A stretch of 64,000 bases of DNA, taken from positions 1,600,001 to 1,664,000 of the forward strand of contig CM000155.2 in the NCBI GenBank assembly GCA_000004695.1, in the 5' to 3' direction. The stretch is from Dictyostelium discoideum. Taxonomy: Eukaryota. The notes under the pieces were generated by a model. That model saw only the letters and a list, made by a program, of their open reading frames with translations. It was not told where the DNA came from and made no database searches. The translations under genes and the position numbers were made by a program. The number at the start of each line of letters is the position of its first letter. The first letter of the stretch is position 1. Shown piece by piece: positions 7,320-41,612 of this stretch.

Positions 7320-8383
7320 TAAAATATCCTTTTAAATTTAAAAATAAATTAATTTATTATTCATAAAAATAAAAAAATAATAAAAAAAATAAAAAAATAA
7401 AAAATAAAATACAAACATGGTAATTTTTATCAAAATTTCCAAAATTTTATTATCTTGGATACTTCTAAATTTTCTTTAATTGACATCTTAATAATTTTTT
7501 TTTTTTTTTTTTTAAAACTTAAAAAATTTTTAATTTATTTAAATTTATTTATTTTTTTTTTTTATATTTGTAATTTTTAATTTATTATTTTTATTAATAT
7601 ATTTTTCGGAATATCTTTTTTTTTTTTTTTTTTTTTTCTAAACGATCTGGGGGAGTATTCCGGAATCGAGATTTATAGTACAAATTTATTTTGTATTTTT
7701 TTTTTTCAAAATTTATGGGTAATATTCCACACGAACAAATCTTTGAGTTTTTACTGGAGCCACTGGATGAACCATCATACATATTCTTAAATCATTATAT
7801 TTTTCATTTTTAATACAAGACATTTTAATATTTTGATTTATATTTTTATTATTTTTCAATGAGAAATTATTTAAATTTTCTATATATATATATATAATAA
7901 AAAACATGATTTTAGTTAGTAAATATAATATTTTCTTTTTTTTTTTTTATTTAATTCTTTGTTTTTTTTTATTTTTTATTAATTTATTTTTTTTATTTTT
8001 TTTTTTTTTATTAAAAATATATACATACCAAATAACATTTTTTTTATTAATTATAAATATATTTTAAATAATAATTTAGTTTGAAATTAAATGAATAAAA
8101 AAAAAAAAAAAAAGTGTTTAAATAATTTTTTTTAATTTTATTATCAATATTTAAATCTTAAAATTTATATAATCAAATTTAGTAATAGTATTTTTTTAAA
8201 ATTTTTATTTATTTCATCATATATTATCATAAAAAAAAGTATTAATTTTATTAAATTGTTTCACTGAAGGTATGACACAAAAAAATATTGACCAACACAA
8301 AATAAAACAATTGGTAGAAATTTGTAAAATTTAAAAATAAAAAAAATAAAACAAAATAAAAAATAAATAATGATAAAATAAGG

Positions 8384-8421
<38 letters not shown>

Positions 8422-9067
8422 TAACGCACAATTCAAATAATCACGAAAAAAGCTTTTTAAAAAAAACATCGCAAAAAAATAAAGAACACCAATGTAAATT
8501 AAATCAATATGAAAGTGTGGAAAATTAAATATCTATAAGGAAATAGGAGGTTGAAAATGCACAGAAATAATTTTATAACCATAAATAATAATTTTTATTT
8601 CCCACACCATTTTTGATAATGTAAAAAAAAAATGAACAAGGATAATAATACTTCTTTACAAACAAAACAACACAAAAAAAAAAAAAAAAAAAAAAAAAAC
8701 AACACTTTCCAATAAAATTACAATAGCTTGCAAAAAATAATTATTGAAAATAAATAATGTTATTTAGATCATATTACAAATTTAACACCACTAATACAAA
8801 AAAAGAAATAATTTAAAAATAAAAATAAAAATAAAAAAAAAAAAATTAAAAATTAAAAATAAAAATAAGATATAAAAAAAAAAAAAAAATAAATGGTGAG
8901 AATTATTTCTTTTCAAATTATAACATTTTTGATATCTTTTTTTTTTTTATATTATTTTATTTTATTTTATTTATTTTATTTTAATTAAAAAATTATATAA
9001 ATATATATTATTTTTAATGATAATCTTTTTTTTTATTTTTATTTTTATTTTATTTTATTTTACTATT

Positions 9068-10039
9068 TTAATTTCTACTTCTTCTTTCTATTTGATCAAT
9101 AACATTATTTGATTTTGTAAATCTTTGACCTCTTAAAAATTGATCATCTTTGAATATACCCTTATAGATATGGGAGTAATTATTAAGTTGACCTATACCA
9201 TTGAATTTACCATCACGGAATTCACCTTGATAAATGTAATTTGGAGTTACAATTTTACCAGTACCATTAAAGTGTTGATATTTCTCTTTGTATGGATAAA
9301 AGAAACCAACAAAAGCACCAACTAACGTTGAGCCTAAATGACAAGCATGATCCAAAGGTGATCTTCTTGAAAAAAGGGGTAAAAATAAACCACAGAAATC
9401 GAAAAGTGCCAATGCTGCCAATACTTGAGAACCTTCGAAATCAAACATTGGTAAGAATATAATACTTACACGTGAATTTTCAAATAAAACAGAGGATGCA
9501 AAGAGTGAGAAAACACTACCACTTGCACCAATCGAGGGAACTACATAACTTCCCACCAACAATTTATAAGTTAAACTTGTCATTGAACCAAATAAACCAC
9601 CCAAGAAATAGAGTATTAAGAAATCACGAGTTCCTAAATGATCATAAGCCGTACTACCAAATGATGCCAATGCATACATATTAAAAAGTATATGAAGTCC
9701 TTCTGTATGTGTAAATGTTGAAAGAATTAAAGATGATGGATACTTATTAAGTGATGATGGTGAAAGGAAGAAATGTGGACCAAATCTTTCTAAAAATCCT
9801 TGAATCTTTAATAAACGCCATACTATAATATTTGCTGCAATTAATGAACCAATCACTAAATATTTCTCTGTAATTTTATATTTTAAAATTTTAAAATAGT
9901 ATGGTTTTTCTTCAATATCTTGTTTACCATTATCATTATCATTTGAATTATTACCAAAACCTAAAAATCCTAACCCAACTCCAACAAATGAAAATAACAT
10001 ATTTTTTTTATTTCTATTTAAAAAATTTAAAATTTTTTC

Positions 10040-10078
<39 letters not shown>

Positions 10079-10390
10079 TTCATTATTTTCATTATTTTCA
10101 TTATTATTATTATTTTCATTATTTTTATTATTATTTTCATAACCTTTATCATTAATATTTGTTGAATAGAATCTATTATTATTAAATGAATTGATAGTAA
10201 AATTATTATTGATTAATGATGATGGTGTTGTTGTTGATAATGTATGATGGTGGTTATTTGTTACATTATAAATCAAATTAACATTTTTAAAATTTGGTGT
10301 AATTTTTGTAAAGTTTGTTTTTATATGTTTAACTTGATTTTTATTTAATATATTTTTTGATATTTTTTTAAAAATTGACGAACTTATCAT
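9068..10390 (-). CDS. rhomboid-family intramembrane serine protease (PARL-like 1+6 TM topology) with C-terminal MORN repeats, single exon, 440 aa
   Basis: HILFNMYALASFG (TM2 H..N motif). GASGSVFSLFA (catalytic GxSG). HACHLGSTLVGAF (catalytic His in TM6). Lys-rich N-terminus resembles a mitochondrial presequence. C-terminal MORN-like repeats: YIYQGEFRDGKFNGIGQL, HIYKGIFKDDQFLRGQRF. Confidence 0.85.
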
Positions 10391-10861
10391 TTTTTTGTTT
10401 TTTTAGAGTGTTGATAGAAAAAAAAAATAAAAATAAAAAATATGATCACTAATCACAAGTGCATAAAAAATAAAAAAAAAAATAAAAAACAATTTAAAAA
10501 AACCAAAAAGTCAAAATTTCAAAAAAAAAAAAATACACATTTAAATTTGTTTTCAAATTAACATTAACCATTTTTTAAAAAATAGATAATATGGAATAAT
10601 TATTAATTTTAAATTTATTTGTTAAAAAAATGAAAATTGTATCTCAATAATATATATTTATATTTTTCTGAATAAATTATTTAATTGTATTAAAATAAAA
10701 AAAAAAAATAAATCCACCAGGCAAATTTAAAATTTTTTTATTTTAAAATTTTTTAATATTTTTATTTTATTATTACTTATTATTACTTATTATTATTATT
10801 ATTATTTATTTTTTAATTTTTTTTAATTTTTTTTTTTTTTTTTTTTTTTAATTTTTTTTTT

Positions 10862-12672
10862 TTAATGAGAAACTATAATTGGTTTTGAATTTGGATCAAA
10901 TTTAAAAGTTAATTTCTTCCAGAATAATAAAACTATACCCATATCGAAAACCCACATTGAAATTAATACAATGAAAAGTGGTAGACGTCTTATCATTGAT
11001 AAACCATAACCAGCCCAAAGCGGACCAAGAATTCTAGCAAGACTACCCATAATCATCATACAACCACTTAGGAAACCTTGAGATTCTTCTTCACCATAGA
11101 TTCTATTCAATAGTTTAGAATAAAGACTATAGACTGAAGTATTTTGAGTTGGAATACCAACAGTAGTGATTGCAACCGATAAAATGAATTTCCACATTGG
11201 TACACTATCAGTTGCCAAACCAAGTCCAAAGAAGAACATCATCAATATTAAACCAGCACCAATGAATAACATACCAAACATGATTGCATGTTTATCTTGT
11301 CCACCTTTACCTGTGAATATAACTGTAACAATAATGAAAACTATGATTTCCAATGACACCAAACTATACATAATACTATTTTGAATTGTACCAAAACCAT
11401 ACTGTTGTTGAGTGATTGGTGTAATTAAAGTTTCAAGTGAACCAAATACAAAATTTTGCACAAAATTAATTACAAAACATGTCAATAGTGATGCATTTAA
11501 TATCTTTTTTAAATTTTCTAAAAATGTTGGTTCTTTTTTCTTTTGATCAGCACCAAATAATCTTGATTGATGAATTGAACCACCATTTGATGAAGAGGTT
11601 TGATATTTTGAAAATTTTTTACTTGAAAAATGTTGAAATGATGATTGTGGTGTAATCATGGTAGTTGATAATGATTCACCACCATTTCCATTTAAACCTT
11701 TTGGATTAACCATTCTATATGTTAATGATCCTTCCTCTCCAAATGTTGGATATTTACTATATGTTGAATATTGTTGATTTATACTATGCTTATAGTCTCC
11801 ACCCAATGTAACTTCTGAATATTTATCTAATGCATGTGGATGGCTTGTACTTTTATGTAATAATGGTGCTTTTTCATTACTTTTAAATTTAGATGATGAA
11901 ATATGTTGTTGTTTTTCATTTATATCAATTTTAGATACTTGATCAATATTAGTTTGATTATTATCTTGATTATCAATTATTGGAGTTGGTTCTCTGAATC
12001 CAATGAATGATAATAAAATTAAGAATAAAAATAATGCTAATAACCAACCTGGTGTTCTTAATGGATCGAAAATGAAATGAACTTTACCAATCCAAAAATT
12101 GAAATTAACTTCACCAATACCAAGATTAAATGCTGGACCTGCAACTAAACCAAATGCATTGATACCATTGATTATACCCATAAATTTGGTTCTTTGCTCT
12201 TTGGTACTGACTGCTGCAATGTAACTATTGGTTAATGCCATATTACTACTACCGATACCTGCTATGAAACGACCTGCAATCACCATATATGGATCGATTG
12301 CCATTGCATAAACTATATTACCAATTACACCAACTATTAAACTTGCTATAAAACTTTCTTTCATTGTTCTTTTGTCTGCCCAAATTCCAACAATTGGTAA
12401 AAAACAAACTTGTGCTATTGAAAATACTGCTAATGCCCACCCCAATGAATTACTATTACCATTGATTGATTCTAAATATTTTAATAATGATGGCATTACA
12501 ATACCATATTCAACATTTGCCACAAATCCAATTATCATAACTGTTGTTAAACTTAACATGTGGACTCGATTTTCTGTTTTTTCATTTGATATTTCCACTT
12601 TTTCATCTTTTACTGATACTTTTTCTTCTTTATTTATTATTAAAATTGAATCATTACTATTATTATTTTCTA

Positions 12673-28212: not shown

Positions 28213-28836
28213 AGAGCAATGGAATCAGAATTAGAAGAAAGGGAGAGAGAAAGAGAAAAACATGTAAATAAAAAACAAAAACATACACATAAACAACAAC
28301 AACAACAATCACAACAACCACAGGAACAATTATCACCACCAACATCAAGACCACCAACACCACCAACAACACCTTCATCACCAACATCTGGATCACCACC
28401 ATCACCACCACCACAATTTTCATCATCATCAACAACAACATCAACACCACCATTAACACCACCATTAACACCATCATCATTTGCAACATCACAATCATTG
28501 AATTCAATTGATTCATATAAGAAAATAGCATGCTTTAGACCTATAACAGCAGAACAAAAGAATAAGCTAGAGTCATTGGTAAACTATTTAACAGATTTAA
28601 TCACTGATGAAATTGGTGACCCTTCTTTAATTTTATTCTCAAGAGCTGAAGCCTATTCTCAATTAAGAGACTACATATCTGCTTTTAGAGATTTTGAAAT
28701 TGCAACTCATTTAAATCAAAAATATACTGATATTCCAAAACGTCATCAAAGATTAAGACAAATAATAAAAGAAGATCAAGAACAAAGAAAACAACTTAAT
28801 AATCTAATTTATCACCATCCCCAAAGTCATCTTTAA
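25548..28836 (+). CDS. TPR repeat-containing protein with poly-Gln N-terminus and a long (EK)n/(ER)n charged tract, 4 exons, ~989 aa
   Basis: Exon 1 25548..26303 (donor GTAAGT). Exon 2 ~26434..26687 (TPR: EYKRSILDSTLAISIQPNCIKAYICRSFGYFF…, donor ATGTAAGA with phase 2). Exon 3 ~26774..27247 (…EKRYEAALSHYSKAIKLNP, donor GTATGT). Exon 4 ~27354..28836 (SIYYSNRGIVYYKLNRFYEAITDC…; then an (EK)n tract encoded by (GAAAAA)n at ~28020-28260; C-terminal TPR-like LFSRAEAYSQLRDYISAFRDFEIATHLNQ). Confidence 0.75.
28040..28262 (+). repeat. (GAAAAA)n / (GAAAGA)n hexanucleotide coding repeat encoding ~75 aa of alternating E/K/R
   Basis: gaaaaagaaaaagaaaaag…gaaagagaaagag inside TPR-gene exon 4. It produces a poly-(FL) artefact ORF on the opposite strand. 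Confidence 0.9.
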
Positions 28837-28898
28837 AAATAAAAAATAAAAAATAAAATAAAATATCAATAGATTATTTAAAAATAATAATAATAATG

Positions 28899-28953
<55 letters not shown>

Positions 28954-28969
28954 TAATAATAATAATAAA

Positions 28970-30503
28970 CTATTTATATTGGTTGAAACAAACTAACCAA
29001 TATAAAAAAAAATAAGAACAAATCAGATAAAATTTTATTTTTACTTTTTTTTTATTTTCTATTTTTATGAGATATCTTTTCCAACCAAAGATATTTTTAT
29101 TGCTATTACATTTACCTTTAAGGTTATTAGTCTCTCCAAAATTCTTTCTTATAGTGTATAAATCATATTGAACCAAAGATGAATCATAAGAGTGATCTAC
29201 ATTTGCTTCATTTGGTGGTAGAGTTACTGATGGTCTTTGATTTATATGCCAACCTCTTAAAAAGTTAATTTTAATTGGTGGTTGTAATGACATTGAATAA
29301 GTAACACGAAATTCTGTTTCTCCAAAGAATATAATATCTTTAAATATTACTTTATTCCAAATACTATTTGATACTTTATCATTTAGATTTGATTGTTCAT
29401 TTCCATTATAGATACCTAATAATTTATCACTATTTAAAGATGCAATCGATGATCTTGATTGTAATGGAATAATGTGAATTGAACCTCCTTTAAATCTACC
29501 TTCAAATATATTTGATTCATAGAATGAATACTGTGAAGTTGAAATAATACCACTATTAATATAATCTATATTATCTGGATATTGTACTCTTGGCCCAACA
29601 GTACTGGTGTTTGAATAAAATGAAATGAATGCATTATAATTAATGTTGAATTGTTCAGTACCATATAATAATGAAATACCACTCATACTTAATCTATCTG
29701 ATTATTCTTTTAATACGAATGAATTACCAATGACATTACCAAATGAACGAATTGCTCCAATGAATGATCTTGGTGTTAAACTTTGTTGTCGAGTTCCTGA
29801 ATGAATTGCTGCTAAAAAACAATTATTTTCAATATTTACAGATTTTTTATTATGGTATAAAGTTATTGGATATCTATTTGGAATATTATTACTTTCATCC
29901 AATGGTGATGATGTTGTATGTCCAAAATCATAGAATACTGAATTTTTAATATCAACAGTTGATGAACCAGTGAAAACCATTGAACATTTACCAATACCCT
30001 GGATCCATACATTTTTATTATAAGGATTTATTAATATAAAACCAGTATCAGTACCTAAGGTTAAATCATAGGAATATTTATCAGTATTAGTTTCCTTCAA
30101 CATATCTGTGTAATAATTGTGCAACTTGTATTGTTCAGTACCATATACATCTTTTGAACCACCAAGTTTAATAATTGGCATTCTATCATTTGAGAATGGA
30201 AAGCTTCTAATGAATGTTGTTCTATTTGTTGTATCATAACCAGTCCATGTTGAACTTGAATCGAAACCTCTAATTGTAATATTACCATATATTGAAAGTA
30301 TTGATGGAATATTTGTTAAGGTAACTTTAGCAGCCTTTACACGATTTTTATCTAAACTGTAAAATTTATCACCAGTGTAATTTAAATTTGTACTTGTTGG
30401 ATAATAATTAATATTATATGATTCACTACCAAATTGGTCATAGACAATATTATTTATATTAACATCATATAATTGTCCACTTGAAACTTGTGAATTACAA
30501 TCT
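28970..30503 (-). CDS. tandem-repeat beta-helix-like protein, putatively secreted, with internal in-frame TAA (possible pseudogene); 5' exon not located
   Basis: Exon begins at acceptor aattaatag (~30503) with no upstream ATG in frame. About 2.5 copies of a ~165-aa repeat: …YGNITIRGFDSS…, GGSKDVYGTEQYKLHNYY…, SGISLLYGTEQFNINYNAF…. In-frame TAA at 29702-29704 separates ORF 29702..30181 from ORF 28970..29686 (exact 15-nt gap, same frame). Hydrophobic C-terminus FYLICSYFFLYWLVCF. Confidence 0.45.
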
Positions 30504-31230
30504 ATTAATTATAATAAAAAACAAATTTAAATTAGTTAATAAGTGGTGGGTTTATTCTTTTAATTTCTATAATTTTATTATTTCAAAACAAACATTTAAA
30601 TAATATTGAAAGATTTAAAAGAAATATTAAAATAACTTTTCATTGTTTATTTTATTTTTTTATTTTTTTTTTTGAAGAAAATAAAAAGAAATAAATTTTT
30701 TCATTTTTATACTATTAATTTTTTTAGTTGATTTTTAGTAAGAGAAAAACATATGTATAATGATGGAATGGTGTGATATTTTTCATTACAAAAAATAATG
30801 CTTAAATCAGGAAAAAAAAAAATATCTTACTTTCAAGCTTAAAAATTTTGAACACAGTGGATTGATAAAAAATGCTTCTTTAAAGTTGGAATATGAAAAA
30901 TAAAAGGCAGAAAATCTGGAAATTTAAGATAAAAAAAAAAAACTAAAATTAAAAAAGATCTTTTTTCAACCAGACTTATTAAATTTTTAATTTTTTTTTT
31001 ATTTTAGTTTTATTTTTATATTTTTCATTGTCATTTTTATTTTTATTTTTATTTTATTTTTATTTTTATTTTTCTTTTTTCTTTTTGTTTCTATTAAAAA
31101 ATAAAATTATAAAATTTAGTTTTTGAATTTTTTTTTTTTTTTTAACTTATACCTTTTCACTAAAAATTTTTTATTTTTATTTTTTTTTTTTTTCATTTTC
31201 AAAAGATATCAATTCTCAAAAAAAATTAAA

Positions 31231-32295: not shown

Positions 32296-33363
32296 TTATA
32301 AAAACATTTGATTTTTATTATTTAATTTTAAAAATTGATTAATTGAATTTAAAGTTGGAGTTGAAGAACAACCACCAATTGATAAACAATTTAAAGCACC
32401 ACATGCAGAGGCAAACTCTAATGAATCTGATAATGATTGATTTTTATGAACTAAACTAAAGATTAAACCAGCCCTAAACGAATCACCAGCACCAGTGGTA
32501 TCGACAACTTTATCCGACGGTATAGCAGATGGCGTGAACCAGTAAGGTTCAATCCACTCATTATTCCAAGTGCCACCAATACCAAAACCATTTTTAGAAT
32601 CTGTTAAAATAAATAAAAACTTTTTAAATATACCATTATCTTTTTGAAACCATTGATTCATAATATTGAAAAATTCTTTAATCGGACCGTCTTTATTACC
32701 GAAATGGTCTGAACTACTCTGAAATATTAAATTTGAAGTATGTTCTATTGATGTGTTTTCCAATGAAAGTTCATCAACCACTGTATCTAATTCCTGATCC
32801 ATTATATATAAATTTGTATTGGTGATGATTGATTTCTTTATGACCTCCCTATTTATTAATGGATAGTTTGCGTCTAATGAAATCCAATGATTCGGTCCAA
32901 ATTGTAAATCAACATTCAATATTTTCTCTTTTATCTCTTTACATTGAACCATATATTGATCAATCTCTGGAAACCCAATTCCAAACATTGTTCTCTCTTT
33001 TTTATTACAAACGTAAATATCTGTTATTGGAGTATATTTTAAATAATTATTTTCATTGTTGTTGTTGATTTCTTGGATTTGTGTAAAGATTACATTTTTA
33101 TCACTAGTTTTACCTGTTGATTGATTTAATTTGTTTATAATGAATTTACCATTTAAATCATCTACTAAAGGTGGTACGATCAATTTTATTGATTCTTGAC
33201 CTTTTTCTACCCATTCATTTATACATACAAATGTATTTGATGCTTCACCACCTAATAAAATTTGTTCGCTAATAACTGGAGTATAGGTACCTAATGATTT
33301 TGGAAATTCTTCTATCTTTCTAACTTTATCAATACAAACTGTTCCAAATATTTGAATCGTCAT
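32296..33363 (-). CDS. pfkB-family carbohydrate kinase (ribokinase-like), single exon, 355 aa
   Basis: C-terminal pfkB signature DTTGAGDSFRAGLIFSL (DTxGAGD). N-terminal GG motif ILLGGEASN. True ATG at 33361-33363. Confidence 0.85.
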   Translation of the reverse strand: MTIQIFGTVCIDKVRKIEEFPKSLGTYTPVISEQILLGGEASNTFVCINEWVEKGQESIKLIVPPLVDDLNGKFIINKLNQSTGKTSDKNVIFTQIQEINNNNENNYLKYTPITDIYVCNKKERTMFGIGFPEIDQYMVQCKEIKEKILNVDLQFGPNHWISLDANYPLINREVIKKSIITNTNLYIMDQELDTVVDELSLENTSIEHTSNLIFQSSSDHFGNKDGPIKEFFNIMNQWFQKDNGIFKKFLFILTDSKNGFGIGGTWNNEWIEPYWFTPSAIPSDKVVDTTGAGDSFRAGLIFSLVHKNQSLSDSLEFASACGALNCLSIGGCSSTPTLNSINQFLKLNNKNQMFL

Positions 33364-34120
33364 TTATTTATTTTATTTTTTAAAAACTTTGATCTTCGTG
33401 ATCTTAGAGATTAAAATTAAATTAAATTTAATTAAATAAAATAAATGAAAAAAAAAAAAAAAATTAAATTAAATAAAATAAAAATAATATTTATTTTAAA
33501 AAAATTAAAAATAAAAAAAAAAAAAAAAAAAAATAAAAAAAAATAAAAAAAAAATAAATAATTGTCAAGAATGGGCAAAAATTTTTTTTTTTTTTTTTAT
33601 TTATAATTTATTTATTATGGGAAATAATTATTGTGCATTATTATTATTTTTTTATTTTTTATTTTGAAAAAATTAAAAAAACACAAAAAAACAGAAAATT
33701 GATTTGACATATTATTATTATAAATGTTTGTTAAAAATATAATTAGGAAAATTAAATACAAATTAAATAAAATATGAGTTCAATTGACTACTTGGTAAAC
33801 AATTGTGATTATAAAGTGTTTAAAATTTCAAATATTATATATATATTTTTTTTTTAAAGAATCAATCCAAAACATTAGTTCAATCAAATCAAGAGATAAT
33901 AAATCTTTAATTAGCTCTGCATTTTCATTAAATGATGGCCAAAGATCAAACTCCATCCAACCAGTTTCCCAAAATGACCAAGAAATGTGTTATTTGGGAG
34001 ATATTGATTATGGATGTACAATCATCTATCCAAATGGAAAAAAACATTAATAAATTACTCGATTTTATTTTATTATAAATTAATAAAATTGCTCAATTTC
34101 TTGTTTTTTAATACAATTTC

Positions 34121-34500
34121 TGAAATATTAAATTTGAAGTATGCTCTATTGATGTGTTTTCCAATGAAAGTTCATCAACTTCTGTATCTAATTCCTGATC
34201 CATTATATATAAATTTGTACTGGTGATAATTGATTTCTTTATGACCTCTTTATTTATTGATGGATAGTATGCCTCTAATGAAACCCAATGATTTGTTCCA
34301 AATATCTGTTATTGGAGTATATTTTAAATAATTATTTCATTGTTGCTGTTGTTGATTATTTCTTGGATTTGTGTAAAGATTACTTTTTTTTCACCAGTTT
34401 TGTCTGTTGATTGATTTAATTTGTTTATAATGAATTTACCATTTAAATCATTTACAAGTGGTATGATCAATTTTATTGATTCTTGACCTTTTCTACCCAG
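34121..34500 (-). pseudogene. truncated, internally deleted duplicate of the adjacent pfkB kinase gene
   Basis: 34121-34500 aligns to 32720-33213 of the intact gene at ~95% identity, with a ~114-bp internal deletion and small indels. Only the fragmentary ORF 34324..34536 remains (…GQESIKLIIPLVNDLNGKFIINKLNQSTDKTGEKKVIFTQIQEI vs parent …GQESIKLIVPPLVDDLNGKFIINKLNQSTGKTSDKNVIFTQIQEI). Confidence 0.8.

Positions 34501-38800: not shown

Positions 38801-41612
<2,812 letters not shown>

What the first reader, a model, noticed from the sequence alone, without database searches (positions are those of the whole stretch)
28970..30503. Tandem-repeat beta-helix-like gene split by an in-frame TAA exactly at a repeat boundary
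ORFs 29702..30181 and 28970..29686 are in the same frame, with an exact 15-nt gap beginning with TAA. Both encode copies of the same ~165-aa unit (GGSKDVYGTEQYKLHNYYTDM… versus SGISLLYGTEQFNINYNAFISF…), and a third partial copy lies upstream. No ATG occurs in the 5' extension back to the acceptor at ~30503, so a further 5' exon is missing from my model. The protein has beta-helix-like periodicity (N/G/S/T-rich with regularly spaced I/V/F) and a hydrophobic C-terminus (possible GPI signal or TM).
Basis: seen in the sequence. Interest (0 to 1): 0.5.

Follow-up and report, generated by a model that had tools for sequence, protein, structure and literature searches.

The report
Dead copy of beta-helix gene
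This is the decaying remnant (pseudogene) of a Dictyostelium gene for a secreted beta-helix protein, disabled by a stop codon, a frameshift and two large deletions; it is not a repeat protein split in two, and it is an ordinary kind of genomic relic.

Summary
The in-frame TAA is real (window 29702-29704, minus strand). An independent, near-identical D. discoideum assembly carries it too. It is a single C-to-A change: three syntenic orthologues read TCA (Ser) there and two paralogues read TCT.

It is one of four disabling lesions, judged against the intact 989-aa syntenic orthologue (P0028, locus L006):
- an 8-nt frameshift deletion in the signal-peptide exon, which I located at 30594-30643;
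- a 378-nt deletion of the G8-like first turns of the beta-helix;
- the TAA;
- a deletion of about 1.15 kb that removes the C-terminal 376 codons.

The "hydrophobic C-terminus" is read-through into former 3' flanking DNA. The "165-aa tandem repeat" is not supported by BLASTP, hhalign or TRF; only a short beta-helix rung motif recurs.

The family is found only in dictyostelids, is uncharacterised, varies in copy number, and has been pseudogenised repeatedly.

Verdict: an unprocessed, lineage-specific pseudogene. Interest is low.

The parts
30594..30643 (-). Exon 1 remnant (signal peptide). It is 50 nt, against 58 nt in the orthologues. An 8-nt deletion after ATGAAAAGTTAT shifts the frame, giving MKSYFNISFKSFNII and then TAA at 30596-30598.
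   Evidence: L001, L006 and paralogue L002 all carry the extra 8 nt and encode MKSY(F/I)IILIFLFN.S.LLK.
30502..30593 (-). Intron 1, 92 nt, phase 1. The donor is GTTTGT (orthologues have GTATGT) and the acceptor is AATAG.
   Evidence: Same position as the intron in L001, L002 and L006. Exon 1 ends in T and exon 2 begins AT TGT AAT, giving Y-C-N-S-Q as in P0002 and P0028.
30311..30501 (-). Start of exon 2. It encodes the equivalent of residues 20-83 of the intact orthologue P0028.
   Evidence: Gap-free alignment, 96.3% identical to L006; tblastn.
30310..30311 (-). Junction of a 378-nt in-frame deletion. It removes 126 codons (P0028 residues 84-209), the G8-like first turns of the beta-helix.
   Evidence: The junction sequence ACCTTAACAAAT|ATTCCATCA is also present in L004.
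29705..30310 (-). Beta-helix coding remnant upstream of the stop (P0028 residues 210-411). It includes the NIPNRYPITLYH motif.
   Evidence: Gap-free alignment, 95.5% identical to L006; structure models.
29702..29704 (-). Nonsense codon TAA. It arose from TCA (Ser, P0028 Ser412) by one C-to-A change.
   Evidence: L006, L001 and L007 have TCA, paralogues L002 and L003 have TCT, and the window and the independent assembly L004 have TAA.
29103..29701 (-). Beta-helix coding remnant downstream of the stop (P0028 residues 413 to about 613), still in the same frame with no indels.
29095..29102 (-). Junction of a deletion of about 1.15 kb, with AATAAA microhomology. The deletion removes the C-terminal 376 codons, the original stop codon and some 3' flank.
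   Evidence: The junction sequence is also present in L004.
28970..29094 (-). Former 3' flanking DNA, now read in frame up to TAG (28970-28972). This is the source of the apparent 'hydrophobic C-terminus'.
   Evidence: It aligns to sequence after the stop codon of the gene in L001 (12795-12950) and L006.

Best explanation
The feature is an unprocessed pseudogene that lost its function only in this lineage. The window is Dictyostelium discoideum of the AX4 type.

The ancestral gene encoded a secreted protein of about 989 aa with these parts:
- a signal peptide;
- a right-handed parallel beta-helix whose first turns form a divergent G8 domain (the CEMIP/TMEM2 type);
- about 370 aa of C-terminal beta-sandwich domains.

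In this lineage the gene was hit four times:
1. An 8-nt deletion in exon 1. Translation from the native ATG now stops after 15 codons.
2. A 378-nt deletion of the G8-like turns.
3. A TCA-to-TAA nonsense mutation in the middle of the beta-helix.
4. A deletion of about 1.15 kb that removes the C-terminal third of the gene and fuses the frame to former 3' flank.

The locus makes no functional protein and drifts neutrally.

Shown here: the lesions, the synteny, the intact orthologues and the fold of the family. Inferred: loss of function, the absence of any role for the fragments, and the glycan-related role of intact family members.
For: Homology:
- The frame matches Dictyostelium proteins at E = 5e-200.

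Synteny and intact orthologues:
- L006 (strain ACTFIR, gene P0028, 989 aa) and L007 (P0029, 988 aa) carry an intact gene between the same neighbours, a PfkB kinase and an NAD kinase.
- Flanking genes give the tree ((window,L006),L001),L007.

Lesions:
- All four are described.
- The retained 1400 nt align to L006 and L007 without a single indel.
- All four lesions are present in a separately assembled genome, L004. It is 100% identical over 1861 nt, and over 17 kb it shows 0 mismatches but 7 indels, so it is a different assembly.

Selection:
- Polarised codon changes are 2 synonymous to 12 nonsynonymous on the window branch, which fits neutrality (P = 0.75).
- The intact L006 branch shows 10 to 12, which indicates purifying selection (P = 0.009).
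- dN/dS between the two intact orthologues is 0.31.

Fold and family:
- AF2 models have pTM 0.70 and 0.82.
- hhalign to a protein with a bona fide G8 domain gives probability 88.7%.
- In TMEM2 the G8 domain is part of the beta-helix (PMC10206443).

No protein on record:
- Neither of the two ORFs is on record as a called protein.
Against: - No expression data could be examined, so a transcript or a short translated fragment is not excluded.
- The window-versus-L006 branch contrast is only suggestive (Fisher P = 0.076).
- The pairwise dN/dS of window against L006 (0.38) is barely above the intact baseline (0.31). The inactivation is therefore recent, or the signal is diluted.
- A public annotation of the near-identical assembly calls a 461-aa protein-coding model here (L004 10717-12390).
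Confidence: 0.93

Rival explanations
1. The locus is a functional gene whose TAA is bypassed, either by stop-codon read-through or recoding, or by a tiny intron that removes the stop.
For: The frame stays open on both sides of the TAA, with no indels over 1.4 kb. GT..AG pairs bracket the stop: GTATTAAAAGAATAATCAGATAG (23 nt) and GTAATTC...GATAG (34 nt). The annotators of L004 built a 461-aa spliced model here.
Against: - The candidate introns are 23 and 34 nt. That is far shorter than the real intron 1 here (92 nt) and its counterpart in the orthologues (more than 100 nt).
- All orthologues and paralogues are colinear coding sequence through this spot.
- Bypassing the TAA would not repair the exon-1 frameshift, the 126-codon loss from the beta-helix or the loss of 376 C-terminal codons.
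Confidence: 0.03
2. One reading: a tandem-repeat beta-helix protein built from ~165-aa units, split at a repeat boundary, with a GPI or TM C-terminus and a missing 5' exon.
For: The YGTEQ(Y/F) motif occurs twice, about 175 aa apart. The fold is a beta-helix, which is repetitive at the level of rungs.
Against: - BLASTP of the two ORFs gives E = 0.068, for the motif only.
- An intact relative shows no self-similarity.
- hhalign gives probability 6%, in another register that pairs single rungs: RYPITLYHNKKSVNIENNCF with SGISLLYGTEQFNISYNSF.
- TRF finds nothing.
- The C-terminal tail is former 3' flank.
- Intact orthologues have no hydrophobic C-terminus.
Confidence: 0.03
3. The stop codon is a sequencing or assembly error in an otherwise intact gene.
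For: It is a single-base difference from the orthologues.
Against: The same TAA and the same three deletion junctions are found in a separate assembly, GCA_054883475.1 (locus L004). The other three lesions are large and cannot be base-calling errors.
Confidence: 0.01
4. The relic has been put to a new use. It might act as a regulatory RNA against its intact paralogues (antisense or small-RNA source), or one of the two ORFs (159 aa or 238 aa) might be translated as a new small protein.
For: The remnant is still 73% identical in protein to its paralogues, with long near-identical stretches. The promoter-side region and the intron are retained.
Against: - No evidence of transcription could be obtained.
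- Neither ORF is on record as a called protein.
- Half a beta-helix without a signal peptide is unlikely to fold.
- The substitutions on this branch look neutral.
Confidence: 0.03

Closest known systems
The intact syntenic orthologue, hypothetical protein ACTFIR_008686 (KAM9953600.1, P0028, 989 aa), with AX4 paralogues DDB_G0271024 (Q55CG9, 976 aa) and DDB_G0270066 (Q55CG2, 1911 aa, two units fused)
   Same: Same locus and neighbours as P0028. Identity is 95.5% at nucleotide level over the retained 1210 nt. The intron position, the signal-peptide exon and the beta-helix motifs (NIPNRYPITLYH, SGISLLYGTEQF) are shared.
   Different: The window copy lacks 8 nt of exon 1, codons 84-209 and codons 614-989, and it carries TAA at codon 412.
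G8-domain beta-helix proteins of the CEMIP/TMEM2/PKHD1 type (Pfam PF10162 G8, PF24606 CEMIP_beta-hel; TMEM2 ectodomain, PDB 8C6I)
   Same: - The family has a secretory N-terminus followed by G8-like turns that continue into a right-handed parallel beta-helix.
- It has an RYP-x-x-L-H motif where bona fide G8 proteins have GRY-x-LHLH.
- hhalign to a protein with a true G8 domain gives probability 88.7%.
- UniProt names the D. purpureum member a 'G8 domain-containing protein'.
   Different: - Pfam G8 scores are below the gathering threshold (13-16 bits against 22.9).
- No inserted lectin-like domain was detected.
- The C-terminal part resembles CBM35/CBM6-type sandwiches only weakly.
- The family is restricted to Dictyostelia: 17 hits among 1.84 billion representatives.
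- The window copy has lost its G8 part altogether.
Pectin-lyase-fold polysaccharide hydrolases and lyases (GH28 polygalacturonase 1BHE, AlgG, PL6 lyases, GH110, phage tailspike depolymerases)
   Different: Sequence identity is 7-15%. No catalytic residues could be assigned, and no activity is known for any member of the family.

Membership tests
Unprocessed (non-retroposed) pseudogene | Clear homology to a gene that is intact elsewhere | tested here: met
   E = 5e-200 to family members. Intact syntenic orthologues P0028 and P0029 exist.
Unprocessed (non-retroposed) pseudogene | Disabling lesions (nonsense, frameshift, truncation) relative to the intact gene | tested here: met
   An 8-nt frameshift in exon 1, a 378-nt deletion, TCA to TAA, and a 3' deletion of about 1.15 kb.
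Unprocessed (non-retroposed) pseudogene | Retains the intron and the original genomic context (so it is not a retrocopy) | tested here: met
   Intron 1 is retained at the same position. Synteny with L001, L006 and L007 holds on both sides.
Unprocessed (non-retroposed) pseudogene | Relaxed selective constraint | tested here: inconclusive
   The window branch shows 2 synonymous to 12 nonsynonymous changes, consistent with neutrality. The L006 branch shows 10 to 12. The contrast gives Fisher P = 0.076.
Unprocessed (non-retroposed) pseudogene | No functional protein product, or no translation | not testable with these tools
   No RNA-seq or proteomics tool was available. Exact-product look-ups found nothing.
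G8 / CEMIP-type beta-helix proteins | Pfam G8 (PF10162) match at the gathering threshold | tested here: not met
   The window translation gives no hit. Intact relatives score 13-16 bits against a cut-off of 22.9.
G8 / CEMIP-type beta-helix proteins | Profile-level homology of the family to a bona fide G8 domain and the following RY..LH motif | tested here: met
   hhalign of family profile A4 against P0032 (Pfam G8 E = 2e-20) gives probability 88.7%, E = 2.6e-6, over 238 columns. This holds for the family. The G8 segment itself is deleted in the window copy.
G8 / CEMIP-type beta-helix proteins | Right-handed parallel beta-helix continuous with the G8 region | tested here: met
G8 / CEMIP-type beta-helix proteins | Lectin-like (GG/PANDER-type) domain inserted in the helix, and glycan-degrading activity | not tested
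   No such insertion was looked for specifically. Activity needs biochemistry.
   The tail derives from ex-3' flank beyond a deletion junction. Orthologues end in a non-hydrophobic sequence.

The most novel reading that the evidence does not exclude
The relic may be one instance of recurrent, lineage-specific switching-off of members of a fast-evolving, copy-number-variable family of secreted G8/beta-helix proteins found only in dictyostelids.

The evidence for independent inactivations:
- at this locus in the AX4 lineage;
- at the same locus in one D. cf. discoideum strain;
- at a second locus in two D. discoideum strains;
- while sister strains keep intact and even tandemly doubled copies.

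If this pattern reflects changing selection on extracellular glycan targets (prey bacteria, matrix or self-recognition) rather than plain drift, the family would be a new polymorphic interaction module in social amoebae.
Probability: 0.2. Interest if true: 0.45.

Novelty: new member of a known kind. Interest (0 to 1): 0.18.

Why it matters
**Annotation.** The region should be annotated as a pseudogene, not as one or two protein-coding genes. Several public gene models appear to be pseudogenes rescued by invented introns: the 461-aa model at this locus in GCA_054883475.1, and P0001, P0002 and P0003.

**The family.** The work also delineates a small, uncharacterised family of secreted, divergent G8/beta-helix proteins that is found only in dictyostelids. 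Its AX4 members are DDB_G0271024 and DDB_G0270066. Intact members are candidates for extracellular polysaccharide-acting proteins. The relic itself has no evident biological role.

Tried and rejected
- **Pfam on the window translation and the two ORFs:** nothing.
- **PDB sequence search with the family profile:** nothing meaningful.
- **Bacterial promoter and terminator scan:** no more than chance, and irrelevant for a eukaryote.
- **tRNA scan of the window:** none.
- **Exact-product look-ups for the two ORFs:** these might have revealed transcript-derived contigs, but nothing is on record.
- **Literature search for DDB_G0271024 and DDB_G0270066:** no papers.
- **afdb50 fold library:** unavailable.
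- **Trans-species polymorphism.** I considered that the window and L001 pseudogene alleles shared an old G8 deletion. I rejected this because the gene region follows the same tree as the flanking genes, ((window,L006),L001),L007, with intact L006 as sister to the window. The L001 stops and frameshifts also differ from those in the window.
- **Duplicate of the PfkB gene.** I considered that the 355-aa ORF at 38801-39868 duplicated the 355-aa PfkB gene. It does not.

Full report
**Organism and setting.** The window has about 20% G+C, with poly-N, poly-Q and poly-T coding tracts. It is identical, with 0 mismatches over 17 kb, to a contig of the Dictyostelium discoideum assembly GCA_054883475.1 (locus L004). 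That strain also encodes a protein identical to one from AX4. The window is therefore D. discoideum of the AX4 lineage. The feature lies on the minus strand.

**Checking the observation.**
- Translating 30502 to 28970 gives one open frame with a single TAA at 29702-29704 (VLKE*SDRLSMSG) and a terminal TAG at 28970-28972.
- No ATG lies between the acceptor AG (30503-30502) and 30181.
Homologues at E = 5e-200 show the frame is real coding sequence.

The "same ~165-aa unit" claim fails every test:
- The two ORFs share only the YGTEQ motif (BLASTP E = 0.068).
- An intact 957-aa family member has no self-similarity even at E = 10.
- Profile-profile comparison of the two segments, built from nine family members, gives probability 6%.
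- TRF finds no long-period repeat.

**What the gene was.**
- A HMMER search of 1.84 billion representative proteins finds only 17 relatives, all from Dictyostelia. They come from D. purpureum (F0ZFT2, which UniProt names a "G8 domain-containing protein"), Cavenderia, Heterostelium, Acytostelium, Synstelium and the D. discoideum species group.
- A profile search adds further paralogues of 947-989 aa and fused double units of about 1900 aa.
- AX4 has DDB_G0271024 (976 aa) and DDB_G0270066 (1911 aa). No paper in the searchable library mentions them.
- Full-length members have a signal peptide, a weak G8 match (13-16 bits, below Pfam's 22.9 cut-off), a long all-beta region, and about 370 C-terminal residues.
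- AlphaFold models were made of a full-length member (pLDDT 68, pTM 0.70) and of residues 79-614 of the syntenic orthologue (pLDDT 73, pTM 0.82). Both show triplets of short strands.
- Foldseek on the domain model returns the same class.
- The family profile aligns to a protein with a bona fide G8 domain at 88.7% probability. The alignment runs through the G8 domain to the RY..LH motif.
- In TMEM2 the G8 domain is simply the first part of the beta-helix (PMC10206443).
The family is a divergent relative of the G8/CEMIP type, restricted to dictyostelids.

**What happened to this copy.** The same locus was recovered from three other genomes. It is flanked by a PfkB kinase on one side and a convergent TPR-repeat gene on the other.
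- L006 (strain ACTFIR) carries an intact 989-aa gene, P0028.
- L007 (D. cf. discoideum ACTFIZ) carries an intact 988-aa gene, P0029.
- L001 (D. cf. discoideum ACTFIY) carries a damaged copy.
- Flanking genes and the gene itself give the same tree, ((window,L006),L001),L007.

Against L006, the window copy has four lesions:
1. **Exon 1.** The signal-peptide exon exists at 30594-30643, followed by a 92-nt intron at the conserved position. It lacks 8 nt after ATGAAAAGTTAT, so translation ends after 15 codons at 30596-30598.
2. **G8 deletion.** A 378-nt in-frame deletion at 30310/30311 removes codons 84-209, the G8-like turns.
3. **Stop codon.** The TAA replaces TCA, which all three orthologues have; both paralogues have TCT. 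It corresponds to Ser412, in a turn between two rungs of the model.
4. **3' deletion.** A deletion of about 1.15 kb, with AATAAA microhomology at about 29095-29102, removes codons 614-989, the original stop and some 3' flank.

The last 40-odd residues of the downstream ORF, including the "hydrophobic C-terminus", are translated former 3' flank. Intact orthologues have no hydrophobic tail.

The 1400 retained nucleotides contain no other indel. All four lesions are present in the separately assembled L004. That assembly differs from the window by seven indels over 17 kb, so it is an independent assembly. A sequencing error is excluded.

**Selection.**
- dN/dS between the two intact orthologues is 0.31. 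The window against L006 gives 0.38, and the window against L001 (both damaged) gives 0.63.
- Polarised with outgroups, the window branch has 2 synonymous and 12 nonsynonymous codon changes. This fits the neutral expectation of 21% synonymous (P = 0.75).
- The intact L006 branch has 10 and 12, an excess of synonymous changes (P = 0.009).
- The direct contrast between the two branches is only suggestive (Fisher P = 0.076).
- The pattern fits a fairly recent inactivation after the split from the L006 lineage.

**Independent losses elsewhere.**
- L001 has TCA at the window's stop position. It has its own two stops (GAA to TAA and AAA to TAA), two 1-nt deletions and a smaller deletion in the G8 region.
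- A second family locus is interrupted by a foreign insertion of about 480 nt in strain ACTFIR (L002).
- In the AX4-like strain that second locus has lost its 5' part and has several frame changes (L003).
- In strain ACTFIW the same second locus is intact and tandemly doubled (P0004 and P0025).

**Mechanism.** For the relic itself the best-supported answer is that it does nothing.
- The native start leads to a 15-codon peptide.
- Any internal initiation would give a cytosolic fragment of half a beta-helix.
- The two GT..AG pairs around the TAA are 23 and 34 nt, too short to be introns here, and every homologue is colinear coding sequence through that spot.

For intact family members I infer, from the fold only, secreted proteins that bind or cleave extracellular polysaccharides. 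No catalytic residues could be assigned. Even TMEM2's activity is disputed (PMC10206443).

**Verdict.**
- The feature is an ordinary unprocessed pseudogene of an uncharacterised gene family. Its main value is for annotation.
- I could not check whether the AX4 reference annotation already lists it as a pseudogene.
- Interest is low. It rises modestly only if the recurrent gain and loss in this family proves to be selected.

Noticed in passing
window 28879-28968: A (TAA)30 microsatellite sits directly 3' of the relic's terminal TAG, in the short spacer before the convergent TPR-repeat gene (which ends at 28836). The same spot in L001 and L006 has only a few units, so the array expanded in this lineage.
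   Followed up: partly
window 34119-34303 and 34347-34462: Two fragments are 93% and 91% identical to internal parts of the neighbouring PfkB-kinase gene (32718-32902 and 33057-33172). This is a second gene relic, a partial PfkB duplicate about 1.3 kb upstream of the intact gene. At least the 34300-34499 portion also has matches in the related genomes.
   Followed up: partly
L001 7135-9836 (gene call 7459-9314): D. cf. discoideum strain ACTFIY carries an insertion of about 2.7 kb with a DDE_1-type transposase ORF just upstream of its damaged copy of the gene. The insertion is absent from the window.
   Followed up: no
L004 10717-12390; L001 10001-12729; L002 10001-12003; L003 10001-12555: Public gene models laid over these damaged copies (a 461-aa model, P0002 of 774 aa, P0001 of 613 aa and P0003 of 724 aa) differ from the colinear reading of the DNA. 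P0002 clearly omits the stretch that holds a stop codon, as if by an invented intron. The others appear to be cut short at, or started after, an insertion, a deletion or frame changes. They are likely mis-annotated pseudogenes.
   Followed up: partly
L002 12010-12490; L003 about 10200-11750: A second locus of the same family is independently disrupted. In strain ACTFIR it has a foreign insertion of about 480 nt rich in CAA/TTG repeats. In the AX4-like strain it has lost the signal peptide and G8 part and has at least three frame changes. In strain ACTFIW it is intact and tandemly doubled (P0004 of 1922 aa, P0025 of 947 aa).
   Followed up: partly
window 30592-30593 (intron 1 donor): The donor site reads GTTTGT, where the L001 and L006 orthologues have GTATGT and paralogue L002 has GTATTT. 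This may be a further small degenerative change affecting splicing.
   Followed up: no
window 20000-41000 versus L006: Strain ACTFIR, labelled D. discoideum, differs from the window by 2-5% in coding regions and about 11% overall in this region. That is nearly as far as 'D. cf. discoideum' and suggests cryptic species within the named taxon.
   Followed up: no
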